A program made the translations under genes and the position numbers. DNA of 39,467 nucleotides from a virus (taxonomy: Duplodnaviria > Heunggongvirae > Uroviricota > Caudoviricetes), in IMG/VR virus record IMGVR_UViG_2706794683_000014. One strand, written 5' to 3'. The stretch's first letter is position 1; each line of letters opens with the position of its first letter. The notes beneath the pieces were generated by a model, which was not told the origin of the DNA, searched no databases, and saw only the letters and a list, made by a program, of their open reading frames with translations. Of the stretch, positions 1,004 through 27,796 are shown one piece after another.

Positions 1004-1341
1004 CAGATCACCACTTCGTCAAACTGACACGAAAAATCGGTATAGGTGATATGTTCTGTCGCTGACCACGTTCGACACACCACTCTGATTTTTCTGTTAA
1101 TACCCGGCGGGCGCCAAAAAAAAGATTTATAGCCTTCATGCCGGGCTAAAAATTTTTCAAATGAATCACGTTCATTCGCCTCAACTTTGAAATCACAGGT
1201 GAAAACGCGCAGAGAATGATTAAGTCCATTTGGACTTCGTTGCTCATAACCATCACCAAATCTTACAGTTTTTATCGATGGTTTATTTTCTGTTTTCATT
1301 CCATCCTCTGGTAACCAGTGAAATTCTTCCGTATTAGCCAC
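1003..1341 (-). CDS. Minor tail protein M
   Basis: 112 aa ORF with the RFGDGY motif; lambda gpM-like in sequence and position between H and L. Confidence 0.85.
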
Positions 1342-4300
1342 TTAACATTCCCCCATCACGTCGCATATTTAACAGATTGCCCTGCACCCGCTGATCAACC
1401 ATCCCCATAAGTGCTTTTATTGCCTGAGGGCCAATCTCTCCATTCTGGCCGTCATTTTGAATAGTGATTTGGTATACAGGGGCATAGGTAATATCTCCGC
1501 CTCCATTACCACTTTTACTATTAATAGCTCTGACACCAAGAGAACCATCGGAAGTTCGTGTTAATGGCATAATGGCTTCCGGTCCAGCCTCACCAAAAAC
1601 ACCAGCCCCTTTTGCAAAAGCAAAAAATTGCGGGGAATCATAAATACCGTTCGAATACGTGCTCAATGACGGAGACTCATAAACACCGCCCTTTGCATTC
1701 GGAATAAATTTACTAATAGCACTCCCGATAGTTCCTAAAATCCCCCCAGAAGAACTGTTACTAATGCTGTCGAAAATCCCAGTAATTGAAGCCTTTAATG
1801 CTATTCGACTAAGATCCGAAATCACGGAAGTAGCGAAAGAACGAAAATTTGCCTTGCCTGTCGTGACAAAATCACCCAGCGCATCGGTCATCCCATCAAA
1901 CATCTGAGTCGTGGTTGATTTTATCTGCTCACTGATATCCTTAGTGTCATCCAGCCAGTTATTGAATCCCTGGGAGGCACCACTAACCCAGTCTCCTGCC
2001 TGAATATCGAGCTGCTCGTTTTTCTGTCTGACAATTTCTTTTTCCCGTTCCAGAGCATCATTCAGAGCCTGCATTTTCTCTTGAAAAACATGATCTGACA
2101 TTCCACGGGATTTATCTGCATAGTCACGTTCAAGTTGCAGACGCTGATTGTTATATCCATGTTCAATCCGCAGTAATTCCTGCTGGCGTTGCTGATTTTT
2201 ATCGCCAACCCCATAACCAGCAATCTGAATATCATACCCCTGCTGACGATTATCAATCGAAGCCTGCAATGAATCACGCCATGCTGTTATTTCGGCGGAT
2301 TCCTTGATTAGCCTGTTATTTTTTTCAATCGCAACATTTTTCTCCATCAACGTGGTTATTTCTTCCCGGTGTAAGAGAAGCGATTTCTGATCCTGGGTTA
2401 ATTTCGATGATGGTCGTGACTCTAGGTCGGCAATCCGCTGACGCCACTTAACCAGTTCCTGTTCAGAGGAACTTAATTTAACGGTCAACTCAGCTTGTGA
2501 ACTTAGTAACGCATTCTGTTGATTCAGATGATCAATCATTCGTTGGGCTGCATCATCAGAATAACCTTTCGCCTTTGGTTGCTTTGGATCTTTATAACGC
2601 TCATTTATTTGAGCGATAAGATTATTATATTCTTCCTTTGAATACTGATTCTTTAGCTTTTCCAGTTTTGCAAGTTCACTAGCTCTCTGCTGCTCCCGGG
2701 TCTGATATTGTTTTGAAAAGGCATCTGCTCTCTGTCTGAGTTCAATTCCTTCCTGTTGTCGCTTGTTGTAATCGTTTATTGATGAATTTAGTACGTCCTG
2801 AGCAATTTTTTCTGCTTGAAGTACGCCCAATTGCTGCTTTAATCGTGCCAGCCTTTTATTTTGAGCTCCGCCATCTCCAATGCCACCTAACCCGAAAACT
2901 CCGGGTCGGGTATTTTTTTCTATTTCATCAATTTGACGGAGAACATCTGAGATTTTTTGATCAAGGGAGGCCTCACGGCCAATATCCAGCATGGAATCCC
3001 ATGCCCATTTTGCGGAGTCTGCGACAGCTTTCCATGCAGTCTCAAGATAACCAAGATTTTCTTTAATCTGGTTGGTGCGCTGGATCATTGAGGATGAGTA
3101 TTCTTCTGTCGCAATGCGGGCGGCCTCCTGCTGGTTCCCTTCATCCTGTAGCGCCTTAATCTGGTTATAAGTCGCAAGTGTCAGAAAATGGTACTGATCA
3201 TTAAGTTTTGATATGGCACTGACAGGATCCTTTGCAATTTCATTGAAGTCATTAACCAGTTGTTCGGTTGATATTCCTGTTACTTCGCTCGTTTTTACTA
3301 TCGCTGTCGTCACTTGCTCCAGCGAACTGCTCGCTACCTTTCCCGAACGCACAAGCTGATTTAATACTGCCGCCGCAGCACCAGTTGTCGAATCAGCCGC
3401 ATTCCCGGCACGTTGAGCTATATCGCCCAATTGCCCGCTGGTTGTCCCCAACTGATTTCCGGTAAGAATAAGAGATTTATTAAATTCGTCCTGCTCCTGA
3501 GAGCCTTTATAGTAAGCCAGTCCTAAGACCCCAACGGCTGCTGCGGCCAGGGTAAAAGGATTAATTAATCCCAGCACATAAGAACCTACACCTTTGATCG
3601 CCGGGCCAATCCCACCGAACATATCTTTTAGCTGGCCGCCCTGCTGCATTAACACCATAAATGGCGACTGACCAGTGGACAACCCAACAACAATATCCGT
3701 CATTTGTACAGGCAACATGCGCATAGCAAAAGCCGTTTGTTTTGCCGACATTCCGGTTTTGCTTAATTGTGATTGAGTAACCTCAAGCTCACTCCGCATA
3801 GCACGAAGTTTTCCAGAAAGCTCCTCATACATTTCAGGAGAAAGCATCCCCTTAGCTTTTGCTTCATTGAGCTGTTTCTGTTGTTCTACCAGACGATTAA
3901 AAGCAGTTCCGACAGGATCAAGTTGAGCAATCAGACGTTGCAAAGCAACAACCTGTTCATCATGCGCTTTTGCTGCTTCTCGCTCTGCCTGAGCCTCTCC
4001 GGTAAGCTCTCGCCGTGTTTCCTGTATTTTTCGGCTATAATTCTCAAACTGAGAACCATTTATTTTCCCGGATGCAAACGCAGCATTAAGTTCATCATGC
4101 TGTTGTTCAAGATTTCTTAGCGCCGCAGCCAGAGGGTCGATCTTGTCCAGCATTCTTTGAAAGGCCTGAGCCTGCGCTTCCTGCTGGGCGGCAGCAAGTT
4201 TTCCGGCCTTCTCGGCTTCTCTCTGCGCTTGCGCAACCCCGCTCAATTCCTCTGTGGTTTCATTAAGTTTACGGACAAGAAATTCATATTCTTCTTTATC

Positions 4301-4567
4301 AATAAGCCCTTTATCGAAAAATTTCTTTAATTCAGAATAGCGTCGACCGACAGTATCAATTGCGGCACCAACTGGATCAATAGCTGCTTTTAATTTTGCG
4401 AGCGCGTTCTTCTCATCTTCTGTTGCCTTAGTCACTTTCCCTGCGCTATTTGCAGCAGTTTCCCCAGCCTGCGTCATTTTGACTAATGAGGAGGTCAGAT
4501 TGTCAGCATTATTTTTCGCTCCAGTGCTATCAATAATTATTGCGAGACGCGAGGTTTGCTCTGCCAT
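1334..4567 (-). CDS. Tail tape measure protein (gpH-like)
   Basis: 1077 aa ORF, alanine/glutamine-rich coiled-coil N-terminal half, glycine-rich C-terminal region; sits between the GT chaperone and M. Confidence 0.9.
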
Positions 4568-12925: not shown

Positions 12926-14236
12926 TTAAATCCGAAGTGATGTGACTCTTCCGGTCGGTTTGACAATAGGGAATTGCTTAACGATGAAATAACCTCCGGC
13001 ATCATTCGGGTGATCATTGCCAGATTTTTTATCAGGCTCCCCCTTCTCATCCCAGACCTGTTGCTCCAGAGATTCGGCATATAACGGGCAACGCTTCACA
13101 TTAACTTTATAGCGACGCTCACCATTGGCATTGCAGAACATTGCATTCATTGAGTTAACGCGATCTTTTACTGGCGGGTTCGAGCTGTTCACCACAACGT
13201 TAAAACCAGCCTGCTTAAGCTGGGCTATATCCGTCGTACTTGCGTTACTTGATTTTCTGGAATCCCCGGAAGCATCTGGATAAATATAAATTTCCCTCAC
13301 TTTCCGGTAATCATTCCCATCATACAGCCAGAAGCGTTCTTTAATGATGCGGATCATATCCGGCGTATCGTAGGCATTGATGATTTCAGTTACCGCACAT
13401 GGAAGCCCCAAACGCAGCACATGGACGATTCCCGCCATCTTTCCAACGTTAAAATCCATCCCAATATAAATCGGCTCCCCTGGCTGCTCCACTTCTTCGC
13501 AATTATTCAGTTTCCGGTCAAACTGATGGTAAACAGTACCACTTGTCAGGTTAGTAAACTGTCCTCGAAGATAGGCTTTAATCAGCTCTGGAGGGTATGA
13601 TTCAAGAAGCGAAGGAATGTAATCTGCTGGCAGGTTCTTTTCATTATCGAAAGTAGATGCCTGCACCAGACCATACAGTGAGGCCAGCTCTGTTTTTTCA
13701 CGCACGGCTTTAACAAACTGCTCGTAGACAAATTTGAATCCTTCCGGCGTGGTTGTAACGTCAATACCGTTGCGAAGTCCATCAATCTTATAACGCATAC
13801 GTGCAATTATCTTGCGCCACGCCGTTCTGGCTTTTTCCTTCGGCAAAATGTCCAGTTCATCCACCAACGCATTACCAATTTTGAAACCGACGATCGTTTG
13901 TGGCTTCTCCATCGATCTGCAGATAGTGGTTCCCCGATACTGGCGTCCGTAATAAAAGTGAACCTCTTTATTTCCCTCATTAATTTTTACGTTCAATCCC
14001 CAGTCAGCAGCAACTTCTTCCACTGTAGGGTAAAAAATATCGCGAATTTGGGGATACGTTGGCGCAAAATATCCCTGATTTATACCTGGATGCTCCCAAA
14101 TCCCCTTGCATATGCCGCCACACCCAACCCATGTTTTGCCCGAGCCAAAACCAGCAATATAGGCTTTAAATTTATGGGGCATTGAAAGAAATCGCGCCTG
14201 AGGCACATTAAGCGTCGGAGAGATCATCTTCATCAC
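12926..14236 (-). CDS. Terminase large subunit
   Basis: 436 aa ORF; N-terminal P-loop-like AGFGSGKT (Walker A) and a downstream hydrophobic-run aspartate/glutamate (VDELD) consistent with a packaging ATPase. Confidence 0.85.
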   Translation of the reverse strand: MMKMISPTLNVPQARFLSMPHKFKAYIAGFGSGKTWVGCGGICKGIWEHPGINQGYFAPTYPQIRDIFYPTVEEVAADWGLNVKINEGNKEVHFYYGRQYRGTTICRSMEKPQTIVGFKIGNALVDELDILPKEKARTAWRKIIARMRYKIDGLRNGIDVTTTPEGFKFVYEQFVKAVREKTELASLYGLVQASTFDNEKNLPADYIPSLLESYPPELIKAYLRGQFTNLTSGTVYHQFDRKLNNCEEVEQPGEPIYIGMDFNVGKMAGIVHVLRLGLPCAVTEIINAYDTPDMIRIIKERFWLYDGNDYRKVREIYIYPDASGDSRKSSNASTTDIAQLKQAGFNVVVNSSNPPVKDRVNSMNAMFCNANGERRYKVNVKRCPLYAESLEQQVWDEKGEPDKKSGNDHPNDAGGYFIVKQFPIVKPTGRVTSLRI

Positions 14237-15302
14237 TCCTTACTCTGGCATCAACCACATTAATATTGATCGCCACAGGCTGGGGATGTTCATTATCTTC
14301 CACCGTTTCGATCTCTTTGCGCAGCTTCTGGTTTTCCATTCTGCGCCGTTCAATTTCCAGTTCCCGTAGCCGCTTATCTGCACATAAAGCCCCGCCAGCA
14401 GAAAACAAACGCAACAATTCACGCCGGGCGGCAGCCTTATCCTCCAGCAGGATCTCAACGCCGAATTTTCCGAATTTTGCCCCTGCATATAATTGCCGCG
14501 CATCCCCATCAAGCAGAGTGGTATCAGCCATATAAAGCTGTCCCGTTCCCTCACCGCAGCACTTCGGGCAGTCCGGATTGGGTATGGCGTTATCAACAAA
14601 GCCGAGGCCTCCATATTCCGGTTCGGGTTTGCCATCTCTGGAAGCCTGCGCCGCTGCCTTGTCGAATTCTGCTATATCGCGCCACTGGTAGAGATGATTC
14701 TCGCCCCAGCAATAACGGCAGTTAACACGGCGAAATTGTGCAAGCTGATTGGGGTCGGCCAGGACAATAGCCATCAACTGACTCACTAGTAAATCCAGGT
14801 CTGCGGTATAGCGTTTCTGGTACTGATTGCGGAAGTAGCTGATAGCGCGAAAAACCCTGGCATTTCTAAGCATACGACTGGCGTTGCTGTTAGCTGTCGC
14901 ACCTTGCCCCTCATAACCGGCTAGTCGGTACGCCTCTGTCGGCTTTTTACCCTGAGCAACAAGCATCGCAAACTTAGCCTGCTGGTCAGAAATGCCGAAT
15001 TCATCGGGACAGAACGAAAATTCCTCCGCGTCGCCCTCATTCAGGCCCGCATCGAATACTGGCTTTTTTTCCTGAGATTTTTCGTTCCGCTTTTGTGCAG
15101 TCTGCGCAGATTTTTTCTGCGCACTTTTTTGCGCAGTTTTGCACATTTCTGTCTGCGCATTTTTCGGAGTTTTTTTGATGTAACGACGGGCTGTTGCGTA
15201 ATTCAGTCCCCTTGCTTCACACCATGCCACCGGAGATATACCGGAGCGGGTGTATTCAGCAATATACTCCTGCTGCAACGCCCCCCAGTCCGGTCTGCTC
15301 AT
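14208..15302 (-). CDS. Terminase small subunit (putative; N-terminal helix-turn-helix)
   Basis: 364 aa ORF overlapping the start of the large subunit gene; N-terminal DNA-binding-like region; unusually long for a small subunit. Confidence 0.55.
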   Translation of the reverse strand: MSRPDWGALQQEYIAEYTRSGISPVAWCEARGLNYATARRYIKKTPKNAQTEMCKTAQKSAQKKSAQTAQKRNEKSQEKKPVFDAGLNEGDAEEFSFCPDEFGISDQQAKFAMLVAQGKKPTEAYRLAGYEGQGATANSNASRMLRNARVFRAISYFRNQYQKRYTADLDLLVSQLMAIVLADPNQLAQFRRVNCRYCWGENHLYQWRDIAEFDKAAAQASRDGKPEPEYGGLGFVDNAIPNPDCPKCCGEGTGQLYMADTTLLDGDARQLYAGAKFGKFGVEILLEDKAAARRELLRLFSAGGALCADKRLRELEIERRRMENQKLRKEIETVEDNEHPQPVAININVVDARVRSDEDDLSDA

Positions 15303-15305
15303 CAG

Positions 15306-15557
15306 TTAGTCCTGATTTTTATCCACCCTGAGTAGTTCGCGCAGAGCAAAGGCATCCCCTTTTCTGGCAAGCTTAAACAATGCCGCTCGTAACTCGGCTT
15401 CACCTTTCGCTCTGCCCTTACGGATGGCCGCATAAAAATCTGTCATTGCTTCCCGATTTTCTTTCAGTCGGTTCAGATCAACATCCAGAACGTCAGCGAT
15501 TTGTTGTGCAGTCATCCGGCACGCTGCCAGAGACTCGACTTTCGAATACGGAATCAT
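15306..15557 (-). CDS. Small helix-turn-helix-like protein (possible packaging or regulatory protein)
   Basis: 83 aa ORF directly upstream of the terminase small subunit gene; start uncertain because it overlaps the upstream ORF (alternative Met at 15515). Confidence 0.4.
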   Translation of the reverse strand: MIPYSKVESLAACRMTAQQIADVLDVDLNRLKENREAMTDFYAAIRKGRAKGEAELRAALFKLARKGDAFALRELLRVDKNQD

Positions 15558-16443
15558 TTGTCACCCCCATTGATATGCAGGGTGTCTTCTTCCTGTATTT
15601 TTCGTGAAGGATTTTTACTGCAGCGTTGTTCCAGGTGACCTGATGGTGAATGCGTTTATGACTGGCACCCATAAGTGAGATTTTTACGCACGACGGCGCA
15701 TACATGACGGAGTAAAAACTTTTAACGTAGGTTCCGGAATCCAGATACAGCTCGGTCATTCCGCCGCTGTTTTTCTGCGTCTGTTTCTGCCCTAACTGGA
15801 CAGCACCGATCGTCATAAACAATTCACCACAGCGACCGAGATTCGTGTACGTATTCACATCCTCGTTAATGCGCCCCATGAATGAGAACGGTCGATCAAC
15901 CGAACAGATAAAGCTGTTCATTGCCTTGCGTTTCACCCACGAAGCATGGCCGCCATTGTCACCAAGAAAATCCCCGCCCTGCGACATAGCGATGGAAAGA
16001 GCAGGTATTGATTCGTAGTACGCAAGCATTTCAGAAAGGATCTCATCCAGTTTCCTTATCGGGAAATAGGCCTGGTCATAGTTGCGATCCACCCGAAACT
16101 GGAACTCGTGATAATCATCATCGAGCTGAATGAAGTATTTACACCCGACCAGTTTTGCCTGGTCGAAACAGGCATTACGGGCGTAAAAAATTGAGCGGCG
16201 GTCACTAAAATTATCGGCTTCGTCAAAACGACTAGCAATATCGGCTTTGGAAAATACCAGCACCTGTTCACCAAATTCAGCCATGTACTGATGCCGTGTC
16301 TTATCTTCATCATCAACAACGATAAAAATTTTCCCGGTATAGCCAGCACGACGCAACGTCCGGTAAGTCAGAACTTTGTCCGGTCGCCCGTGAGTCAGAA
16401 TAAAGGCGCAAAAATCATCACGCATATTCCTCCTCCCCGCCAT
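15493..16443 (-). CDS. Hypothetical protein with a GT-A glycosyltransferase-like signature (DxD-like LDDDY)
   Basis: 316 aa ORF; CAFILTHGRPD ... IFIVVDDED ... YFIQLDDDY resembles the Rossmann/DxD layout of GT-A enzymes; motif-level only, no methyltransferase motifs seen. Confidence 0.35.
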   Translation of the reverse strand: MAGRRNMRDDFCAFILTHGRPDKVLTYRTLRRAGYTGKIFIVVDDEDKTRHQYMAEFGEQVLVFSKADIASRFDEADNFSDRRSIFYARNACFDQAKLVGCKYFIQLDDDYHEFQFRVDRNYDQAYFPIRKLDEILSEMLAYYESIPALSIAMSQGGDFLGDNGGHASWVKRKAMNSFICSVDRPFSFMGRINEDVNTYTNLGRCGELFMTIGAVQLGQKQTQKNSGGMTELYLDSGTYVKSFYSVMYAPSCVKISLMGASHKRIHHQVTWNNAAVKILHEKYRKKTPCISMGVTNDSVFESRVSGSVPDDCTTNR

Positions 16444-17206
16444 GCATGATCTCCACCATGCGCTGCGTCATTCGGACAAATCCATTTTCAATAGCCTGCT
16501 GATAATCAATGATCACCAGCGCCGACTCCTCGAAAAGGCACTGAATTTCAGCGGGGGCATGAGCGTAATAGTCCGCAATTCTGCTGAAATTAAACACCGT
16601 GTGACGTTCTGCTGCACACAGGAGGAATTTCTCAATATCAGGATCAAGGGACGCCGAACGTATCCGGCTGATCAGCTCCTGAGTTTTCGTATCGTCGTAC
16701 AGTTCACTGATATCCGGTTTACCGCCTGACGGCTCATAAACAGGCGTATCAATTTTCGTCGTATACGGCTCCTCCTCATTTCCTGTACCGGGCAAAACAT
16801 CCGTCAACAGTTCATCAATTTCTGCCGGGATGAAGCCTGTCAGGGAGACATCAAAATCAGCATTGATTAGGTCCGACAGCTCCATCCGCAACAGATCTTC
16901 ATCCCAGCCAGCATTCATCGGCAGGCGATTATCTGCCAGGCGGTACGCCTTTTTCTGCTCATCCGTCAGGCCAGACAGAACAATGACCGGAACAGAATCC
17001 ATTTTGAGCATTTCAGCCGCCATAACACGACCGTGACCCGCAATAATTTCGCCCTTTTCGTCAATCAGCACCGGATTAGTCCAGCCGAATTGCTTAATAC
17101 TTTCTACCAGTTGTGCCACCTGCTCAGTACTGTGCGTCCTGGCGTTGTGCGCATACGGTGACAATTCTTGTAATGGGCGATAGACTATCTTTAATTTCTC
17201 GCTCAT
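16418..17206 (-). CDS. ParB/sulfiredoxin-like N-terminal domain protein
   Basis: 262 aa ORF; N-terminal KIVYRPLQELSPYAHNARTHS ... IIAGHGRVMAA resembles the ParB N-terminal nuclease/CTPase-fold signature; acidic C-terminal region. Confidence 0.6.
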   Translation of the reverse strand: MSEKLKIVYRPLQELSPYAHNARTHSTEQVAQLVESIKQFGWTNPVLIDEKGEIIAGHGRVMAAEMLKMDSVPVIVLSGLTDEQKKAYRLADNRLPMNAGWDEDLLRMELSDLINADFDVSLTGFIPAEIDELLTDVLPGTGNEEEPYTTKIDTPVYEPSGGKPDISELYDDTKTQELISRIRSASLDPDIEKFLLCAAERHTVFNFSRIADYYAHAPAEIQCLFEESALVIIDYQQAIENGFVRMTQRMVEIMHGGEEEYA

Positions 17207-17221
17207 ACAGCCTTGCTTTAT

Positions 17222-17257
17222 GAATAAAACGCACCCCAGCAGCCAGTGCTACTGGGG
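17222..17257 (-). terminator. Putative intrinsic terminator downstream of trkG
   Basis: Imperfect hairpin ccccagcag...ctactgggg followed on the minus strand by GCGTTTTATTCA. Confidence 0.35.
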
Positions 17258-17343
17258 GCGGAGGTGTTGCTGGTAAAGTTAGGTATTGGATCAATGAGTG
17301 AGTCAACATAATATTAAACTCACAATTATAAATCAGCCATATA

Positions 17344-18801
17344 TTAGGAGCGCCAAAAAAAACCTGAAAACAATATAATAACAGGATAAATTTCAAGGCG
17401 ACCAAGAATCATAGCTATGCACATTAAATATTTTGCAATGTCATTAAGCACTCCGAATGACGATGCAGTAGCCCCAAAACCTAATCCCATATTATTAATA
17501 CATGCAGCCACTGTTGCAAATGATGTAAGAAAATCATATCCCATACCATTTAACACCAGTATAAAAAACACCGTGAAGAGAGTATAAAGAAAAAAGAAAC
17601 TCCATACAGACCTCATTACACGATCTGTAACTATCTTCCCTCCTACATTTACACTCAACAACGCTCTGGGATGAGAAAGCTGATTTATCTCGTGTTTGCT
17701 TTGTTTGAAAAGTATAAGAAATCGAAGTGACTTAATTCCACCACAGGTTGAACCTATACATCCCCCAAAGAAACTTGACAACAGCAAAAACACTATCGTG
17801 TGCGTGGGCCAGTTTGCATAATCCTGCGTAGCTAAACCATTATCAGTGAGCATGGAGCTGGCAAGAAAAAACGAATGAATAAAACTTCCATGCAAGTCAT
17901 ACATACCTATATGCCAGACCTGGAAAGAGGTAACAATGATCACCCCTAAGGCTATTAACAGAAAGAAACGAAGTTCAATATCTCTGATTAAAGGTTTTAT
18001 CGTTTTTCTGCTAATAACAATATACCAAAGAGTGAAGTTGAAAGCCGATAGCAGGGAAAAAGAACCAGCCACCAGCTCAACCAAATAGTTATTAAAATAT
18101 CCGATACTCTCGCTATGAGTTGAGAAACCACCAAGCGAAACTGTGGAAATCCCGTGACAAATAGCATCAAACAAAGGCATTCCTGCAAGTCTATAACAGA
18201 CAATACAAGCAATACCTAATAAAGAATAAGTTATCCACAGTGTCCGTGACGTATCGGCCAGGCGGGGAGTGAGTTTGTCATCCTTAAATGGCCCCGGCAT
18301 TTCTGACTGATAAAGCTTTGCACCACCAATACCCAATAATGGCAATACTGCAACCGCCAGAACAATAACTCCTAAACCACCTATAAAATTTAACTGTGAC
18401 CGATAGTACAAATATGCCCGAGGTAATGAACTAACATCATCAATTACAGTTGCTCCTGTTGTTGTTATTCCAGAAACCCCTTCAAACAGAGCATCAATGA
18501 ACGTTAAATTAAGTTCTGAGTCAATCCATAAAGGGAATGCACTAATAACAGAAAACAAAATCCAAAACATTACAATTATAATAAACCCATCACGGGTACG
18601 TAATTGAATGCCAGATTTCTTAGTTGTATACCACGCTCCGCCACCAATGCAAAAAAATATAACGAAAGTTATAAAGAAAACGAACAGGCTTTTTTCTTTA
18701 TAAAACAATGCTACAACCATTGGTGGCAACATTGAAAGACTATAGAGCCAAACCAGGAACCCACACATATGAGTAACAACTCTTACATGAGATGTATTCA
18801 T
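17344..18801 (-). CDS. trkG: Trk-system potassium uptake protein TrkG
   Basis: From the internal Met (MNTSHVRVVTHMCGFLVWLYSLSML...) the product is 485 aa, matching recalled K-12 TrkG; multi-pass membrane protein; AT-rich gene. Confidence 0.9.
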   Translation of the reverse strand: MNTSHVRVVTHMCGFLVWLYSLSMLPPMVVALFYKEKSLFVFFITFVIFFCIGGGAWYTTKKSGIQLRTRDGFIIIVMFWILFSVISAFPLWIDSELNLTFIDALFEGVSGITTTGATVIDDVSSLPRAYLYYRSQLNFIGGLGVIVLAVAVLPLLGIGGAKLYQSEMPGPFKDDKLTPRLADTSRTLWITYSLLGIACIVCYRLAGMPLFDAICHGISTVSLGGFSTHSESIGYFNNYLVELVAGSFSLLSAFNFTLWYIVISRKTIKPLIRDIELRFFLLIALGVIIVTSFQVWHIGMYDLHGSFIHSFFLASSMLTDNGLATQDYANWPTHTIVFLLLSSFFGGCIGSTCGGIKSLRFLILFKQSKHEINQLSHPRALLSVNVGGKIVTDRVMRSVWSFFFLYTLFTVFFILVLNGMGYDFLTSFATVAACINNMGLGFGATASSFGVLNDIAKYLMCIAMILGRLEIYPVIILFSGFFWRS

Positions 18802-18938
18802 ATCTAAATATTCTTTCAATTATAACCACCTTGCTGCAATATTATGATTATACTGTATAAAATTTAACTCCTCTTAGATCTTACTTCACTGTTCCTTATG
18901 AAACAATCATCAAAATGAATCATATTGTAGTTAAGATT

Positions 18939-19403
18939 TTACTTTAAACACTGCTCGGTTATGTATTGCTGAGCACCTTCAAGTTGGGCCTGCATCATTA
19001 CCAGTCGTTCCCGGAGGGTGAAATAATCCCGTTCAGCGGTGTCTGCCAGTCGGGGGGAGGCTGCATTATCCACGCCGGAGGCGGTGGTGGCTTCACGCAC
19101 TGACTGACAGACTGCTTTGATGTGCAACCGACGACGACCAGCGGCAACATCATCACGCAGAGCATCATTTTCAGCTTTCGCATCAGCTAACTCCTTCGTG
19201 TATTTTGCATCGAGCGCAGCAACATCACGCTGACGCATCTGCATGTCAGTAATTGCCGCGTTCGCCAGCTTCAGTTCTCTGGCATTTTTGTCGCGCTGGG
19301 CTTTGTAGGTAATGGCGTTATCACGGTAATGATTAACAGCCCATGACAGGCAGACGATGATGCAGATAACCAGAGCGGAGATAATCGCGGTTACTCTGTT
19401 CAT
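18939..19403 (-). CDS. rzpR: Spanin inner-membrane subunit (Rz)
   Basis: N-terminal transmembrane segment then coiled-coil periplasmic domain; follows the endolysin gene; contains the embedded Rz1 frame. Confidence 0.8.
18998..19183 (-). CDS. rzoR: Spanin outer-membrane lipoprotein subunit (Rz1), embedded in Rz in another frame
   Basis: 61 aa ORF inside Rz; lipobox LVVVGC followed by a proline-rich mature region ([16 protein letters not shown]). Confidence 0.8.
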
Positions 19404-19855
19404 TGCTGACCCCACAAACAGATTTCNNNNNNNNNNNNNNNNNNNNNNNNNNNNNNNNNNNNNNNNNNNNNNNNNNNNNNNNNNNNNNNNNNNNNNNNNN
19501 NNNNNNNNNNNNNNNNNNNNNNNNNNNNNNNNNNNNNNNNNNNNNNNNNNNNNNNNNNNNNNNNNNNNNNNNNNNNNNNNNNNNNNNNNNNNNNNNNNNN
19601 NNNNNNNNNNNNNNNNNNNNNNNNNNNNNNNNNNNNNNNNNNNNNNNNNNNNNNNNNNNNNNNNNNNNNNNNNNNNNNNNNNNNNNNNNNNNNNNNNNNN
19701 NNNNNNNNNNNNNNNNNNNNNNNNNNNNNNNNNNNNNNNNNNNNNNNNNNNNCCAGACCATCGTTACCACTTGGGCCAGTGATTAACACTGATGCTATAG
19801 CAATTGCTCCGCCACCAATAGCAGCAGCAACGACTTTTCGTAATGATGGAGGCAT
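19400..19855 (-). CDS. Signal-anchor-release (SAR) endolysin, phage-21 R type; interior masked by N
   Basis: N-terminus [34 protein letters not shown] and C-terminus EICLWGQQ match recalled phage 21 lysozyme; the same frame stays open across the N run. Confidence 0.75.
19427..19752. other. Masked/undetermined sequence (326 N)
   Basis: Run of n in the input, inside the endolysin gene. Confidence 1.
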
Positions 19856-20321: not shown

Positions 20322-20717
20322 CTAACCTCGCATGTCAAAGCCAGATTTCTGAAAATCTCTGTAGACTTCCGGATTGTTGAAGGCCGGAAATTTGGCTTTA
20401 TGAGCTGCGGACTTTATCGCTTCGCAATAGGCTTTATCACCGTTACTGGTAGATATTTTTAACGCCGTGCCATCCTGAGAGAATTCCATATGCAACCTGC
20501 ATTTTTTCCCTTTCCAGTTATGCGGCTCATCAAGTTTGGCATTAATTGCAGCTCTGATTCCCCGCGCTTGCGCCCCCCATTCATCCTGATCATCCCAGCG
20601 TCCTGAACTGCAACTACCTGTAGCAGTAGTTTTGTGGCAATCTGAAGGGTGTAAAGGTGTGCATCCCGCAACAAAACCGACCCAAAAAGTCAACATAACG
20701 ATTTTCTTTAATCCCAC
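20322..20717 (-). CDS. Lipoprotein with TolA domain-III-like C-terminus (diverged paralog)
   Basis: Signal peptide plus lipobox FVAGC-T; C-terminal region alignable to the neighbouring paralog and to TolA domain III (…GKKCRLHMEF…GDKAYCEAIKSAAHKAKFPAFNNPEVYRDFQ…). Confidence 0.7.
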   Translation of the reverse strand: MGLKKIVMLTFWVGFVAGCTPLHPSDCHKTTATGSCSSGRWDDQDEWGAQARGIRAAINAKLDEPHNWKGKKCRLHMEFSQDGTALKISTSNGDKAYCEAIKSAAHKAKFPAFNNPEVYRDFQKSGFDMRG

Positions 20718-20867
20718 TTCTTGCTCCTCAATCCATTAAAATCTCAGCAATAGTAGTTGTTACGTCCGCCACTGGCTCAGAGCTGACTATCCGCTAAATT
20801 TAGCTCAGTGCCGTAGCTGTGTCAGAACAAACCTAAGCCGAAACCGTTTATTACAAAACAATAAATA

Positions 20868-21296
20868 TCAGGGTTTAAAATCCAGCACCCCATTTTGAAA
20901 TACTTTATATACTTCCGGCGAAGGGGGGGCAGGTATATCAGCATTCTTTATCGCATTCATCGCTTCACGACATAAATCGAGGTCTCCACTTTCTCTTTTA
21001 ACCTCCAGTAGAAGGCCATTCGGGGCCATATGCATTCTCAGTGTACACTCTTTTCCTGAATACTTACTCGCATCCCCGAACTGTTTTTCGATGGCGCTCT
21101 TGATTTGATGGGCATACAGACGGATATCCTCACTAACATCAGAAGTACGTTCAGATGAACTCACATACTGTGTCTCTATTGCTTTATCGGAGTAATATGA
21201 TGTACGGTCATGATAATTTGTCGATACAGCATCAGTGCACCCGATAATAATCCCACTAATAATCAACGTAAGAATTGATGCGCTACGAAAACCCAT
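20868..21296 (-). CDS. Lipoprotein with TolA domain-III-like C-terminus
   Basis: Lipobox IIGC-T; C-terminal YAHQIKSAIEKQFGDASKYSGKECTLRMHMAPNGLLLEVKRESGDLDLCREAMNAIKNADIPAPPSPEVYKVFQNGVLDFKP closely parallels the recalled E. coli TolA C-terminus (YAGQIKSAIESKFYDASSYAGKTCTLRIKLAPDGMLLDIKP...AVYEVFKNAPLDFKP). Confidence 0.75.
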   Translation of the reverse strand: MGFRSASILTLIISGIIIGCTDAVSTNYHDRTSYYSDKAIETQYVSSSERTSDVSEDIRLYAHQIKSAIEKQFGDASKYSGKECTLRMHMAPNGLLLEVKRESGDLDLCREAMNAIKNADIPAPPSPEVYKVFQNGVLDFKP

Positions 21297-22340: not shown

Positions 22341-22883
22341 TCAAGCCATTTTCTCAGCAAATGATTCACGCATGGGAATATATAGGGCATACTCAGCAAC
22401 AGCTAACCAATTAGCAATCCGTTTTTCGCATGTGCTAAAACACCACTCTGGGTGTGCATCATTTAGCAATTCAGCCATTTTGCGCTTAGTCATCCCCCGC
22501 CCTTCATAGCGTTGCCGGAGAATGCAAATCAATCCTGGATGCTCTGCCAGCACCTCACTTATGACTCGATCAATACATAACGCCTCTGCATCAGTACAAT
22601 GCGCCAGCCAGCTCTTTTGCTTGCCGTTGATCATCTCTCGCAAAAACGCTTCCAGCTCAGCTTTCTCTATTCCCGCTTTTTTCATTCTGCGCAGGGCTTC
22701 ATTAATGGCTGTTTTCGTCAGTTTTTTGGATGCCAACAACTGATTGAACATATTCCCTGACCTGCCACCGCCAATATACGACCAGCGCCCCCACATACGT
22801 AGTTTTCCCTGAATCCAGACACTTTCCAGCGTGGTGAGGCGAAGGTGTTCTCCGCTTTTTCCTGTATTCGTTGGGTAAATCAT
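22341..22883 (-). CDS. Late-gene antiterminator Q-like protein
   Basis: 180 aa ORF immediately upstream of the promoter/terminator pair and the lysis genes; tryptophan-rich motif WIQGKLRMWGRW reminiscent of Q-family proteins. Confidence 0.55.
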   Translation of the reverse strand: MIYPTNTGKSGEHLRLTTLESVWIQGKLRMWGRWSYIGGGRSGNMFNQLLASKKLTKTAINEALRRMKKAGIEKAELEAFLREMINGKQKSWLAHCTDAEALCIDRVISEVLAEHPGLICILRQRYEGRGMTKRKMAELLNDAHPEWCFSTCEKRIANWLAVAEYALYIPMRESFAEKMA

Positions 22884-25541: not shown

Positions 25542-26543
25542 TTAGTAATCTGCGTGTTTCGCACTTTTCAGAAATGCTTTCATATTTTCATTAGGTCGCT
25601 CAATTTCGAAGTTACTTCCATATAACTCTTGTAATTTTGGCCATAACTTACTTAATAACCCTCTCCTGCGATAAAATGGATGTATCCAAACGGTAGATAG
25701 GTACGGAGAATTTGCATTTGAATTGTTTATTGTGACCAGCCCAACTAAACATTGTCGATAACCACTATTATCCATTGATTGTATTTCTTCGACGAATGGA
25801 TACGCGATTACATCAGTCCAACCATGATCGGTTGTATCCCATTGCATTCCGTCATGACATTCCTTCGACTGATAGCGGCGTAAAGCTACACACGCGAGCT
25901 TTTGCCAATCTGGAGAATTAATTGTGATCTCTTCATCGTATGACGCGCCTATTGGAGCGGGTATTGGTCTGATTAATCCAGCATGGCATTCATCATAGAA
26001 CTTCATGTTTCCCTCAGAAACGTTGTGTACGTTGGGTTGCTCCATGTGTGCGCCATTCAAAAATAGCTCTGATAGTAGTGTATCTACACTGTAATCTTTA
26101 TTGATTATTGTCGGCTTAGAGTTTTTCTTATTAAGGCCGCGAGTAACGATTTTTTGATCAATGTTAACAACATGGAATAATCCGTCGGGGAGGCTAGCGA
26201 ACCACGATGGGGCATCGGACCAGAATAGCATGCCTTTTGTACTTCTTAAGAGTTTAATTAAGTTAATACAAGCTTCTTCACTAGTCTTGCCGTTGATGCG
26301 AAGTATGTTAGGACTAAAGTAATATTCATCCATATCAGGGAATGCAGCTTCGCAAAACTCCTGTACATAATTTAGCACCTGGATTCTACAGAGATCATCA
26401 TAGCTGGTAATAACTAAGGGGGTATCTTCATTACTATTATGATTATCAATAATGCAATCTATAGCGAGACTTACTGCTTTGCGTATCACTTCAGTTGAAT
26501 CTAACGACTCTAAAAATTTTGTCTTTCGTGTGCGAATATCCAT
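25542..26543 (-). CDS. Hypothetical protein with a C-terminal GNAT acetyltransferase-like motif (cassette gene 2)
   Basis: 333 aa ORF; C-terminal ...LVGLVTINN...STVWIHPFYRRRGLLSKLWPKLQELYG resembles GNAT motif A; N-terminal ~220 aa unrecognised; AT-rich; starts 16 nt after the upstream gene stop. Confidence 0.6.
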   Translation of the reverse strand: MDIRTRKTKFLESLDSTEVIRKAVSLAIDCIIDNHNSNEDTPLVITSYDDLCRIQVLNYVQEFCEAAFPDMDEYYFSPNILRINGKTSEEACINLIKLLRSTKGMLFWSDAPSWFASLPDGLFHVVNIDQKIVTRGLNKKNSKPTIINKDYSVDTLLSELFLNGAHMEQPNVHNVSEGNMKFYDECHAGLIRPIPAPIGASYDEEITINSPDWQKLACVALRRYQSKECHDGMQWDTTDHGWTDVIAYPFVEEIQSMDNSGYRQCLVGLVTINNSNANSPYLSTVWIHPFYRRRGLLSKLWPKLQELYGSNFEIERPNENMKAFLKSAKHADY

Positions 26544-26558
26544 GTATGACCTGCGCTA

Positions 26559-27581
26559 TTAAAATTCATGAATGAACGGTTTGTCATCTGGTTGCAAAAT
26601 GGTGGTTTTATTCGTTGCTACATTTAAACTGTTGTAGAGCATAATTGCCAGGTTCGATGCATTTTCAATCAGCGTTTCAAGATCCTGGTCTGTAATCACT
26701 ACGAGGTTCCCTTCTTTATCCTTTCCACCACGATGCACTAAGTGATTTCGATTGAGGGTTGCCAATTCAATAGCTTCTATCGGACAGTCTTTTTGTACTT
26801 TTATATCGAATGTAGCTTCATAGCGGTCGATTACCTTTTTAGTGCTATGCCAGCTTGCACTGATCAAGTGTTCCTTGATTGACCTGATTAGCTCTCCCCT
26901 AATTTTCTCGATGGGTTCACCCTTGAAAGGCAACGCAGCAATATCTTTGCTTACTTTAAATTCAGTCTTACCTTTTTCTATACAATTGGCTATGTAGACA
27001 TCATCTTTCTCTATAGAATTAATGAATAGCTCAACATAAAGCGTTTCCAAAGCTGTAATAACATTCGTGTAGAGCAAACTAAGCAAGTGGTTTTTTTGCT
27101 GTTGTTCAGTTTTATCTTTTGCAAGTTTTTTTATTTTATCGATATTATCAATGAATTTTAAATACGGATTACCGGAAGACGTTACAGCGTCGTAGATATC
27201 ATCATCGTACCAATCATCTATATTATTTGAGTTTCCAGACCAGTCAAAACATTGTGTTTGTAATTCATCTACTAATTCCTCAATATACTCAGATTTAACA
27301 TATTGACCGAAGATGGATTGTAGTTCTTCGCTCGCATCATACGGCCCGCCATATATGTAAGCATAGCCACCTTCTCTACTTTCATACGGACAAGCATTTG
27401 CCGGATCTTCAAAGTTTTCAAAGAACCAGTTTTTCATTACTTCGAGTTGATCTTTTTTGCTTATGTATTTTAAAGATTTTAGTGGAACTTTCTTTCCATT
27501 AACCTCGAAAACAATTTTCACGATGTAACGCTCCCTTGTATCAATTGCGCAACTATTATACCACAGCGAAATACAGGGCAT
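26559..27581 (-). CDS. Hypothetical protein with an R-x4-H (HEPN-like) motif near the C-terminus (cassette gene 1)
   Basis: AAGGAGG Shine-Dalgarno 6 nt before the ATG at 27581 (MPCISLWYNSC...), 340 aa; C-terminal ATLNRNHLVHRGGKD contains R-x4-H; AT-rich; no recognisable phage-core homology. Confidence 0.6.
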   Translation of the reverse strand: MPCISLWYNSCAIDTRERYIVKIVFEVNGKKVPLKSLKYISKKDQLEVMKNWFFENFEDPANACPYESREGGYAYIYGGPYDASEELQSIFGQYVKSEYIEELVDELQTQCFDWSGNSNNIDDWYDDDIYDAVTSSGNPYLKFIDNIDKIKKLAKDKTEQQQKNHLLSLLYTNVITALETLYVELFINSIEKDDVYIANCIEKGKTEFKVSKDIAALPFKGEPIEKIRGELIRSIKEHLISASWHSTKKVIDRYEATFDIKVQKDCPIEAIELATLNRNHLVHRGGKDKEGNLVVITDQDLETLIENASNLAIMLYNSLNVATNKTTILQPDDKPFIHEF

Positions 27582-27796
27582 AACCTGCCTCCTTAAACTA
27601 ACATACCATGAGCCAGCAATGTCCGCTATTGGCACAAAGCGGACAACCACGCTAGCTCTCCCCTGTGCCAGAAAAATGTCAATTTACATATGAACTAATG
27701 CTCTTTGATCTAGTAACGTCTATAAATACCGAAGATTTCCTTGATAAAATGCCAGTACACGTTTCATAACTTCACTCTTCCGGCACTCGCGACAGA

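What the first reader, a model, noticed from the sequence alone, without database searches (positions are those of the whole stretch)
15493..17206. ParB/sulfiredoxin-like protein paired with a GT-A-like (DxD) protein beside the terminase genes
Immediately upstream of the small terminase gene lie a 262-aa protein with a ParB N-terminal-domain signature (…IIAGHGRVMAA…) and an overlapping 316-aa protein with a Rossmann/DxD-like pattern (IFIVVDDED … YFIQLDDDY) suggestive of a nucleotide-sugar transferase. Packaging-adjacent ParB-like genes in phages are usually tied to DNA modification or anti-restriction, and a sugar-transferase partner could mean DNA or protein glycosylation. The 316-aa protein shows no methyltransferase or PP-loop motifs. 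The deleted K-12 Rac may retain only a fragment of the ParB-like gene (ynaK), though I am unsure of that.
Basis: inference. Interest (0 to 1): 0.55.

Follow-up and report, generated by a model that had tools for sequence, protein, structure and literature searches.

The report
Phage sugar-transferase and its ParB-like partner
Just ahead of the DNA-packaging genes, this Rac-like E. coli prophage carries a widespread two-gene phage module, a sugar-adding enzyme and its constant ParB-like partner, which most likely puts sugars on phage DNA or on the partner protein, though nobody has tested which.

Summary
Both ORFs are intact on the minus strand. The 262-aa protein has a ParB/Srx N-domain. The 316-aa ORF (probably 310 aa) is a GT-A glycosyltransferase of Pfam TAGT (E 4e-34) and PHROG 842. 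K-12 ynaK is the N-terminal remnant of the ParB-like gene.

The pair is an obligate, mobile two-gene module. All 42 loci from one-genome-per-species sampling have the partner gene directly upstream of the GT, usually overlapping it. The same is true in Lactobacillus, Nocardia and haloarchaeal viruses. The module nearly always precedes terminase genes, which belong to at least five unrelated families.

The constant parts of the partner are a disordered Y-[T/S]-x-K-x3-P-x-Y motif and an uncharacterised helical C-domain, not the ParB domain. Vibrio phages lack the ParB domain altogether.

No TET or hydroxymethylase gene was found in this prophage. Relatives fuse the GT to a second GT, a sulfotransferase, a methyltransferase-like or a kinase-like domain.

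Best reading (0.45): late, pre-packaging glycosylation of phage DNA as an anti-defence coat, without a 5hmC precursor. Main rival (0.25): O-glycosylation of the partner's conserved motif. The acceptor is not determined.

About 16% of complete E. coli genomes carry the intact pair.

The parts
16418..17206 (-). Partner gene (262 aa; full-length version of K-12 ynaK). It has a ParB/Srx N-domain, a helical stretch, a conserved disordered linker and a helical C-domain. The protein is strongly acidic (pI 4.5, net charge -24).
16907..17206 (-). ParB/Srx-fold N-domain (residues 1-100). N21, G57 and N93 are nearly invariant across diverse partners. This domain is the most variable part of the partner (mean pairwise identity 0.29).
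17027..17041 (-). P-motif variant A-G-H-G-R (residues 56-60) in place of the canonical ParB G-E-R-R. The last arginine, R60, is retained.
   Evidence: Alignment to Spo0J 1vz0; sequence. R60 is present in 30 of 37 diverse partners.
16715..16765 (-). Conserved linker motif Y148-T-T-K-I-D-T-P-V-Y157-E-P-S...P164 in a region predicted to be disordered. Y148, P155 and Y157 are invariant. Position 149 is only T or S.
   Evidence: pLDDT below 50 for residues 137-158. Invariance in 38 diverse partners and in 16 C-terminal segments.
16421..16696 (-). Helical C-domain of the partner (residues 171-262). This is the best-conserved part (mean pairwise identity 0.50). It has no Pfam family and no significant PDB relative.
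   Evidence: In Vibrio 191-kb phages the partner consists of the linker and this domain only.
15493..16443 (-). Glycosyltransferase gene (maximal ORF 316 aa; probable CDS 15493..16425, 310 aa). GT-A fold, TAGT family, soluble, basic (pI 8.3). PGAP names it 'GREB1-related protein'.
16114..16122 (-). DxD motif D108-D109-D110 (within QLDDDY), invariant in 26 homologues.
16303..16314 (-). First acidic motif D44-D-E-D47 at the end of Rossmann strand 2. D44 and D47 are invariant.
16418..16436 (-). Translational-coupling junction. The RBS GGAGGAGG (16429-16436) is followed by ATGCGTGA (16418-16425), in which the GT start codon overlaps the partner's stop codon.
   Evidence: The two ORFs also overlap or abut in all 42 diverse loci.
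17234..17257 (-). Terminator-like GC-rich hairpin plus T-run between the trkG moron and the partner gene. It would insulate the pair from trkG transcription. Reading through it needs late-operon antitermination; that step is my inference.
12926..15557 (-). Context: 83-aa TerS-like ORF (15306..15557), small terminase (14208..15302) and large terminase (12926..14236), immediately downstream of the pair.
17344..18819 (-). Context: trkG moron (low GC) upstream of the pair. The lysis cassette and a Q-like antiterminator (22341..22883) lie further upstream, which places the pair in the late operon.

Best explanation
The two genes form one accessory phage module made late in infection. This follows from their position: downstream of the Q-like antiterminator and the lysis genes, and directly ahead of the terminase genes.

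The 310/316-aa protein is the catalytic subunit, a soluble metal-dependent GT-A glycosyltransferase of the TAGT family that uses a nucleotide-sugar donor. The 262-aa protein is its obligate partner, translated in fixed ratio through the overlapping stop and start codons. The partner's conserved linker motif and C-domain probably bind or complete the enzyme. Its exchangeable ParB/Srx N-domain is the same module that phages fuse to DNA methyltransferases. It probably binds a nucleotide and brings the enzyme to DNA.

The most likely job is to add sugars to newly replicated phage DNA just before packaging, so that progeny genomes enter the next host shielded from restriction and other DNA-sensing defences. 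Unlike the known TAGT systems, it would do this without a 5-hydroxymethyl-pyrimidine precursor, so the acceptor atom is unknown.

Shown here: fold, family, operon structure, obligate pairing, late and packaging-adjacent position, and absence of a precursor pathway. Inferred: physical complex, DNA as the acceptor, and the protective role.
For: 1. Catalytic identity.
- TAGT E 4e-34 and phrog_842 E 8e-104.
- Invariant DxD motif.

2. Known TAGT-family enzymes mostly work on DNA.
- The T6 TAGT is credited with adding the second glucose on glucosyl-5hmC (PMC13390438).
- Metavirome GT-A enzymes glycosylate 5hmC (bioRxiv 10.1101/2023.12.21.572611).

3. Obligate pairing.
- 42 of 42 loci from different species and phyla have the partner immediately upstream of the GT.
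- So do 80 of 80 viral contigs, most of them near-identical E. coli prophages.
- So do Lactobacillus phage c5, Nocardia phage NTR1 and haloarchaeal virus HHTV-2.

4. Link to DNA.
- Partner residues 10-144 equal the N-terminal module of ParB-DNA-methyltransferase fusions (E 1.5e-38; E 6e-51).
- Such fusions are enriched in prophages, and ParB folds bind NTPs (PMC12704722).
- Neighbouring genes in diverse loci include N6/N4 DNA methylases (3 clusters) and an IbrA-like DUF3440 protein.

5. Position.
- The pair always sits just ahead of TerS and TerL, whichever terminase family is present: Terminase_6N, T7-like, GpA, Terminase_3, TerL_ATPase or Terminase_4.
- It lies in the late operon.

6. The module is accessory. 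Rac-SA53 has related terminase genes but carries toxin genes in this slot.

7. The glycan is diversified.
- The GT is fused to a second TAGT domain, to Sulfotransfer_2, to a class-I methyltransferase-like domain or to a P-loop kinase-like domain.
- Neighbouring genes include an epimerase, a cytidylyltransferase and a radical-SAM enzyme.
- This mirrors the sugar-tailoring genes seen in DNA-hypermodification clusters (bioRxiv 10.1101/2023.12.21.572611).

8. The GT is basic (pI about 8.4), which is compatible with binding nucleic acid.
Against: - No enzyme that makes a hydroxyl-bearing base (TET/JBP, dCMP or dUMP hydroxymethylase) or a C5-methyltransferase was found in the window. None is annotated in the 31.8-kb phage c5.
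- None appeared in the top 25 of 78 families in the neighbour survey, but that list was truncated.
- Canonical DNA offers no obvious O-acceptor, and no NDP-sugar glycosyltransferase is known to modify canonical bases (my own knowledge).
- The authors of the metavirome study regard GTs without such neighbours as less likely to be involved in DNA hypermodification.
- The partner is very acidic (pI 4.3-4.6 in all homologues), which is unusual for a DNA-binding adaptor.
- The partner's ParB domain is its least conserved part, is undetectable in 10 of 38 partners and is absent in Vibrio phages.
- One TAGT-family member, GREB1, glycosylates protein Ser/Thr (PMC7968844).
- No natural partner-GT fusion was seen among the 150 best family representatives.
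- There are no experimental data for any member of this pair.
Confidence: 0.45

Rival explanations
1. Protein O-glycosylation, with the partner itself as the acceptor. The GT adds sugar to the conserved Y-[T/S]-x-K-x3-P-x-Y peptide in the partner's disordered linker, much as GREB1 modifies Ser/Thr or glycogenin modifies Tyr. The tailoring domains seen in relatives would then extend this glycan. The glycoprotein would be the functional product, for example a decoy, a DNA-associated factor or a packaged factor.
For: - Y148, P155 and Y157 are invariant, and position 149 is only T (28) or S (10) in 38 very diverse partners. The motif lies in a region predicted to be disordered.
- The linker and C-domain, not the ParB domain, always travel with the GT, including the 139-aa Vibrio partner.
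- The GREB1 precedent lies within the TAGT family (PMC7968844).
- Enzyme and partner are never fused in the top 150 representatives, as would be expected for an enzyme and its substrate.
- No DNA acceptor pathway is present.
Against: - A conserved peptide in a linker can equally be a docking or activating segment.
- This reading gives no role for a ParB/Srx N-domain of the type fused to DNA methylases.
- It does not explain the fixed position ahead of terminase genes.
- No function is known for such a glycoprotein.
- Most characterised TAGT-family enzymes act on DNA.
Confidence: 0.25
2. The GT glycosylates some other acceptor, such as a small molecule, a nucleotide, RNA, or a host or virion protein. 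Examples would be inactivating a defence signalling nucleotide or decorating capsid or tail proteins. The partner would act as a nucleotide-binding regulator.
For: - ParB folds bind varied NTPs (PMC12704722).
- About 65% of phage GT contigs lack DNA-modification neighbours (bioRxiv 10.1101/2023.12.21.572611).
- Sulfated and methylated sugars, as implied by the fusions, are typical of exposed glycans (my own knowledge).
Against: - The GT is 43-57% identical between phages of Proteobacteria, Bacteroidota, Firmicutes, Actinobacteria and haloarchaea. That argues for a universal acceptor rather than host-specific or capsid-specific proteins.
- The terminase families of these phages differ.
- Neither protein has a membrane segment or signal peptide, which excludes Gtr-type O-antigen conversion.
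- There is no PADLOC hit for the GT.
Confidence: 0.15
3. Two unrelated functions that happen to be adjacent. The ParB-like protein would be a partition protein, or a packaging nuclease that helps terminase as HNH proteins do, and the GT would be an independent moron.
For: - Phage records annotate the partner as 'chromosome (plasmid) partitioning protein' or 'ParB-like partition nuclease'.
- The pair sits next to the terminase genes.
Against: - Pairing holds in 42 of 42 loci across phyla, with overlapping ORFs.
- There is no ParA gene, no HTH domain, and the TIGR00180 score is below its cut-off (38 against 58.45).
- The GERR motif is altered.
- The element is an integrated prophage.
- The module occurs with at least five unrelated terminase families and is missing from Rac-SA53, which has related terminase genes.
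- The ParB domain is the least conserved part of the partner.
Confidence: 0.05
4. A classical TAGT role. The GT would glycosylate 5hmC or 5hmU, or a sugar already attached to them, with the precursor made by genes elsewhere in the phage or host.
For: Family membership and the PHROG name borrowed from the T2/T6 enzyme.
Against: - E. coli makes no 5hmC (my own knowledge).
- No hydroxymethylase or TET gene is in the window or annotated in small complete phage genomes that carry the pair.
- T-even phages were not hit by tblastn at 1e-5.
Confidence: 0.03

Closest known systems
T2/T6 beta-glucosyl-HMC-alpha-glucosyltransferase (TAGT family, PF20691)
   Same: Same Pfam family, and the same PHROG name (phrog_842). 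GT-A fold with a DxD motif. Phage-encoded and soluble. It acts after replication on phage DNA (PMC13390438).
   Different: The T-even enzyme needs glucosyl-5hmC, which depends on dCMP hydroxymethylase and alpha-GT. It has no ParB-like partner and sits among early genes. The sequence relationship is distant: there was no tblastn hit at 1e-5.
Metavirome MT / 5mYOX(TET) / GT-A DNA sugar-hypermodification clusters (bioRxiv 10.1101/2023.12.21.572611)
   Same: GT-A phage glycosyltransferases, sometimes with ParB-like neighbours and sugar-tailoring enzymes (secondary GTs, epimerases, kinases). The presumed role is anti-defence.
   Different: Those clusters encode the methyltransferase plus TET, or ThyS-like enzymes, that create the hydroxyl acceptor. 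This module has neither, and its only constant companion is the partner protein.
Phage ParB-DNA methyltransferase fusions (phrog_498; PADLOC MTase_II; surveyed in PMC12704722)
   Same: The N-terminal 140 residues of the partner are the same ParB/Srx module (E 6e-51 and 1.5e-38). Both are enriched in prophages and are often found near terminase genes. The logic of pairing a ParB-fold module with a DNA-modifying enzyme is the same.
   Different: Here the enzyme is a glycosyltransferase on a separate polypeptide. The partner carries its own conserved linker and C-domain, which those fusions lack. The PNAS survey does not mention glycosyltransferases.
GREB1 (animal TAGT-domain O-GlcNAc transferase)
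   Same: Homologous GT domain, and PGAP names the E. coli protein 'GREB1-related'. It shows that this family can glycosylate protein Ser/Thr (PMC7968844).
   Different: GREB1 is a large eukaryotic multidomain cytoplasmic protein acting on ER-alpha. It has no ParB partner and no phage context.
Canonical ParB (ParABS CTP-dependent clamp)
   Same: ParB/Srx fold in the N-domain. The N21, G57, R60 and N93 equivalents of the nucleotide pocket are retained.
   Different: The motif is GHGR instead of GERR. There is no HTH domain, no dimerisation domain and no ParA. The TIGR00180 score is below its cut-off. The protein is acidic.
Phage Mu Mom (from my own knowledge, not tested here)
   Same: A late-expressed, non-essential phage function that chemically modifies canonical DNA bases before packaging, giving anti-restriction protection without a precursor-nucleotide pathway.
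   Different: Unrelated protein fold and chemistry (acetamidation of adenine N6). It is a single protein.

Membership tests
TAGT glycosyltransferases (Pfam PF20691 / phrog_842) | Profile match above the curated threshold | tested here: met
   118.8 bits against a cut-off of 27.5, E 4.1e-34, residues 14-228. phrog_842 E 8e-104 over residues 7-304.
TAGT glycosyltransferases (Pfam PF20691 / phrog_842) | GT-A (Rossmann-like nucleotide-diphospho-sugar transferase) fold | tested here: met
TAGT glycosyltransferases (Pfam PF20691 / phrog_842) | Conserved DxD metal/donor-binding motif | tested here: met
   D108, D109 and D110 are invariant in 26 homologues.
TAGT glycosyltransferases (Pfam PF20691 / phrog_842) | Genomic association with TET/JBP or a hydroxymethylase that supplies the 5hm-pyrimidine acceptor | tested here: not met
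   None in the PGAP annotation of the prophage, in Pfam scans of the unannotated window ORFs or in the annotated 31.8-kb phage c5. None in the top-25 list for 121 neighbour clusters from 42 loci, although that list was truncated.
TAGT glycosyltransferases (Pfam PF20691 / phrog_842) | Transfers sugar to DNA | not testable with these tools
   Needs nucleoside mass spectrometry or enzyme assays.
Canonical ParB partition proteins (TIGR00180) | ParB/Srx N-terminal fold | tested here: met
Canonical ParB partition proteins (TIGR00180) | GERRxRA CTP-binding P-motif | tested here: not met
   The motif is AGHGRVMAA. Only the last Arg is kept. Across partners the motif reads G-[H/N]-x-R.
Canonical ParB partition proteins (TIGR00180) | Whole-protein model above cut-off, with HTH and C-terminal dimerisation domains | tested here: not met
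   TIGR00180 scores 38.1 bits against a cut-off of 58.45, and only over residues 11-94. No HTH or ParB C-domain Pfam hit. The C-domain has no significant PDB relative.
Canonical ParB partition proteins (TIGR00180) | Adjacent ParA ATPase / parS system | tested here: not met
   No ParA gene in the annotated 42-kb region. The flanking genes are trkG and the GT.
Phage ParB-DNA methyltransferase fusions (phrog_498 / PADLOC MTase_II) | Shared N-terminal ParB module | tested here: met
   Residues 3-141 match phrog_498 at E 6.1e-51. Residues 10-144 match PDLC03229 at E 1.5e-38.
Phage ParB-DNA methyltransferase fusions (phrog_498 / PADLOC MTase_II) | DNA methyltransferase catalytic domain | tested here: not met
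   The matches stop at residue 144, and there is no methyltransferase Pfam hit in the 262-aa protein.
Gtr-type seroconversion glycosyltransferases | Membrane-associated GT with flippase and membrane partners | tested here: not met
   No hydrophobic segment in either protein (maximum Kyte-Doolittle value over 19 residues is 1.25 and 1.08). No Gtr genes nearby.

The most novel reading that the evidence does not exclude
This is a self-sufficient two-protein system that glycosylates canonical, non-hydroxymethylated DNA before packaging. The attachment would be to a base nitrogen, the backbone or DNA ends. That would be a new class of DNA modification. It would be carried by temperate phages of many bacterial phyla and by archaeal viruses, be present intact in about one in six complete E. 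coli genomes, and have its glycan diversified by fused sulfo-, methyl- and glycosyl-transferases.
Probability: 0.3. Interest if true: 0.88.

Novelty: new variant of a known kind. Interest (0 to 1): 0.6.

Why it matters
All characterised phage DNA glycosylation starts from a hydroxymethylated pyrimidine. This TAGT enzyme's only constant companion is a ParB-like partner, and no precursor pathway is present. So either DNA is being glycosylated by unknown chemistry, or a conserved phage glycoprotein exists whose role is unknown.

The module is common and easy to study. There are 1,498 clusters at 50% identity. It occurs in phages of at least seven bacterial phyla and in a haloarchaeal virus. The intact pair is in 867 of 5,426 complete E. 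coli genomes, in inducible Rac-like prophages. Two genes can be cloned into K-12, which retains only the ynaK stump.

The result bears on three questions: why about 65% of phage GT-A genes have no DNA-modification neighbours, what the non-partition ParB folds of phages do, and how temperate phages evade restriction.

Tried and rejected
- **Literature.** The original TAGT paper (Iyer et al. 2013, NAR) is not held, so I could not check whether it already shows a ParB-TAGT neighbourhood. Searches for TAGT+ParB, ynaK, HHTV-2+ParB and glucosyl-HMC+ParB found no functional study.
- **Direct PDB sequence search.** The GT found nothing. A profile of the partner C-domain gave only insignificant repeat-protein hits.
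- **AF2 models.** The alignments were shallow (22-26 sequences at 55% identity or more). The models are confident only for the GT N-terminal 160 residues and for the ParB N-domain. The GT C-terminal third and the partner C-domain are unreliable, so I drew no surface or active-site conclusions.
- **Viral-contig scan.** It returned almost only near-identical E. coli prophages and added little diversity. The one-genome-per-species scan was the informative one.
- **PADLOC.** There was no hit for the GT, so it is not a catalogued defence protein.
- **Natural partner-GT fusions.** I looked for them as evidence of a physical complex. None was found among the top 150 representatives; the fusions are to tailoring domains instead.
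- **Partition ParB, packaging nuclease and seroconversion GT.** Considered and rejected; reasons are given under the rival explanations.
- **Neighbour survey.** It lists only the 25 most frequent of 78 families. Rare TET or ThyA-like neighbours in some loci cannot be excluded.
Full report
**1. What is in the sequence**

Two overlapping ORFs lie on the minus strand, at 16418..17206 (262 aa) and 15493..16443 (316 aa).

The surroundings identify a Rac-like lambdoid prophage of E. coli.
- Upstream are a Q-like antiterminator (DUF1133, 22341..22883), two TolA-domain ORFs, the lysis cassette (partly masked by N) and the trkG moron.
- Downstream are an 83-aa TerS-like ORF, a 364-aa small terminase, a 436-aa large terminase, then portal, head and tail genes.

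This stretch is 100% identical to E. coli EC2 (NZ_CP058571).

The likely GT start is the ATG at 16425 (MRDDF...). It is preceded by GGAGGAGG and overlaps the partner's stop codon in ATGCGTGA. That gives 310 aa, as in PGAP and in all homologues.

A terminator-like hairpin at 17234-17257 separates trkG from the pair.

**2. Identity of the two proteins**

The 316-aa protein:
- It matches Pfam TAGT (TET-associated glycosyltransferase) at E 4.1e-34 and phrog_842 at E 8e-104. RefSeq calls it 'GREB1-related protein'.
- Its nearest viral structures are TAGT proteins.
- The DxD motif D108-D110 and many other residues are invariant.
- It is soluble and basic.

The 262-aa protein:
- It is not a partition ParB. 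The P-motif reads GHGR rather than GERR. TIGR00180 scores below its cut-off. There is no HTH domain, no ParA gene and no ParB C-domain.
- Residues 3-144 are the same module found at the N-terminus of phage ParB-DNA-methyltransferase fusions (phrog_498 E 6e-51; PADLOC MTase_II E 1.5e-38).
- After residue 140 come a linker predicted to be disordered and a helical C-domain. This C-domain has no Pfam family and no significant PDB relative.
- The protein is strongly acidic (pI 4.5), as are all its homologues.

**3. The K-12 remnant**

K-12 MG1655 matches only window 16953-17350, which is annotated ynaK followed by ydaY. So ynaK is the first 84 or so codons of this gene, cut off by the Rac deletion.

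Of 5,426 complete E. coli genomes, 1,610 have some match and 867 have at least 80% of the 2-kb stretch.

In EC2, PGAP flags the intact gene as an incomplete ynaK pseudogene. This looks like an annotation artefact, because the ORF is full length against its homologues.

**4. The pair is an obligate, mobile module**

A scan of one genome per species found 42 loci. They come from Proteobacteria, Bacteroidota, Firmicutes, Desulfobacterota, Planctomycetota, Ignavibacteria, Saccharibacteria and an archaeal MAG, and their GTs are 48-99% identical to this one.

In all 42 loci a partner gene lies immediately upstream of the GT, usually overlapping it. The same arrangement is found in:
- Lactobacillus phage c5, as cos site, partner, GT, two small ORFs, TerL;
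- Nocardia phage NTR1, as partner, GT, TerL;
- haloarchaeal virus HHTV-2.

Downstream there is nearly always a small and a large terminase. These belong to different families: Terminase_6N, T7-like, GpA, Terminase_3, TerL_ATPase and Terminase_4. The module therefore moves between phages but keeps its place at the head of the packaging operon.

It is dispensable. Rac-SA53 has related terminase genes but carries LT-IIa toxin genes in this slot.

The family has 1,498 clusters at 50% identity with E up to 1e-3.

**5. What is constant in the partner**

Across 38 diverse partners, mean pairwise identity differs by region:

| Region | Residues | Mean pairwise identity |
|---|---|---|
| ParB N-domain | 1-100 | 0.29 |
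| Linker | 145-165 | 0.45 |
| C-domain | 171-245 | 0.50 |

- Y148, P155 and Y157 in the linker are invariant, as are eight C-domain residues. Position 149 is only T (28 sequences) or S (10).
- In the N-domain, only N21, G57 and N93 are nearly invariant, and R60 is present in 30 of 37.
- Pfam detects ParB_N in 28 of 38 partners.
- In the 191-kb Vibrio phages the GT sits among replication genes. It is preceded by a 139-aa protein that consists of the linker and C-domain only.

The core of the system is therefore the GT plus the linker motif and C-domain. The ParB fold is a frequent but exchangeable add-on.

**6. Variants point to an elaborated glycan**

Family representatives include the GT fused to:
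- a second TAGT domain (P0263, P0273);
- a Sulfotransfer_2 domain (P0287, E 1.6e-13);
- a class-I methyltransferase-like domain, on either side of the GT (P0246, P0254, P0264, P0275, L038), or on the partner (L024);
- a P-loop kinase-like domain (P0267, P0297, P0300).

Where context could be read, the partner was still upstream and terminase downstream. Extra genes included a radical-SAM enzyme, an epimerase/dehydratase, a cytidylyltransferase and a GT-B fragment.

A 2025 survey of ParB-fold fusions reports N6_N4 methylase and Methyltransf_23 fusions in phages. It does not mention glycosyltransferases (PMC12704722).

**7. No precursor pathway**

Known TAGT enzymes act on 5hmC, or on a sugar attached to it (PMC13390438; bioRxiv 10.1101/2023.12.21.572611). 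I found no TET/JBP, hydroxymethylase or C5-methylase gene in the prophage annotation or in Pfam scans of its unannotated ORFs, and none is annotated in the complete 31.8-kb genome of phage c5.

A survey of 121 neighbour clusters from the 42 loci showed N6/N4 DNA methylases (3 clusters), an IbrA-like DUF3440 protein and an epimerase. No TET or thymidylate-synthase family appeared in the 25 families listed, but the list was truncated from 78.

The metavirome study notes that about 65% of phage GT contigs lack such neighbours, and treats them as less obviously DNA-modifying.

**8. Interpretation**

The best-supported reading is a late-expressed, accessory, two-subunit glycosylation module. I put 0.45 on DNA as the target. 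This rests on:
- the track record of the family;
- the ParB module shared with DNA methylases;
- the DNA-methylase and IbrA-like neighbours;
- the pre-packaging position;
- the arms-race-like diversification of the glycan.

If DNA is the target, the chemistry must differ from all known phage DNA glycosylation, because no hydroxymethyl base is available.

The main rival (0.25) is that the GT glycosylates the partner's own invariant Y-[T/S] motif. This has precedent in GREB1 (PMC7968844) and is consistent with the partner's acidity and with the absence of enzyme-partner fusions.

Other acceptors (0.15), two unrelated adjacent functions (0.05) and a classical 5hmC-dependent role (0.03) are less likely.

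None of this can be settled by computation. The experiments are simple and are listed under next steps.

**9. Verdict**

This instance is an ordinary member of a large, annotated but uncharacterised phage gene pair. The module itself is a new variant of phage glycosyltransferase systems: it has an obligate partner and no precursor pathway. Interest is moderate to high (0.6), because it is widespread and tractable in E. coli, and either outcome would reveal unknown biology.

Noticed in passing
window 19400-19770: A run of N (masked sequence) lies inside the lysis cassette, in the rrrD-like lysozyme region. ORFs there translate as X.
   Followed up: no
window 25542-27650 (- strand): A low-GC (0.32-0.41) pair of genes annotated as hypothetical sits in the early region. 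One is 333 aa with a weak GNAT hit (E 9e-4). The other is 363 aa with a weak HEPN/RES N-terminal-domain hit (E 2e-4). There is no PADLOC match. It may be a moron or an uncatalogued defence or toxin pair.
   Followed up: partly
window 20322-21296 (- strand): Two ORFs with TolA C-terminal domains (131 and 142 aa) lie between the Q-like antiterminator and the lysis genes.
   Followed up: no
L001 21650-21907 (= window 16949-17206): In E. coli EC2, RefSeq/PGAP annotates only the first 86 codons of the intact 262-aa gene, as an 'incomplete' ynaK pseudogene. The apparent cause is that the K-12 stump serves as the reference. The ORF is full length in the DNA.
   Followed up: yes
L044 5489-6918 (Vibrio phage pv27) and related 191-kb Vibrio phages: A GT 44% identical to this one is preceded by a 139-aa protein that is only the linker and C-domain of the partner, with no ParB domain. 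The pair lies among primase, exonuclease and helicase genes rather than at the terminase.
   Followed up: partly
L024 189-1739; L038 3581-6161; proteins P0246, P0254, P0264, P0275: A class-I SAM-methyltransferase-like domain (weak Methyltransf_23/11 hits; motifs VDVGCG...ASEYFEH) is fused to the partner in one lineage and to either end of the GT in others. L038 also has a second GT copy.
   Followed up: partly
P0287 / L131; P0263; P0273 / L132-L133; P0267 / L129-L130: The GT is fused to a sulfotransferase, to a second TAGT domain, or to a P-loop kinase-like domain. L129 also has a radical-SAM gene directly upstream of the partner. The P0263 contig has epimerase and cytidylyltransferase genes.
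   Followed up: partly
L134 (Escherichia phage Rac-SA53, KU052037): A Rac relative carries heat-labile enterotoxin IIa genes in the slot between the lysis and terminase genes, where this window has trkG and the ParB-GT pair.
   Followed up: no
L001 5262-9272 vs window 1334-4567: In strain EC2 the tape-measure gene is interrupted by an IS1. In the window it is a single 1077-aa ORF. So the window comes from a different strain with a more intact prophage.
   Followed up: no
window 15306-15557 (- strand): A small ORF (83 aa maximal, 69 aa in PGAP) overlaps the 3' end of the GT gene and matches the middle of a small-terminase PHROG (phrog_309, E 8e-23). It occurs only in the enterobacterial loci. 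TerS may be split here, or may have an HTH helper.
   Followed up: partly
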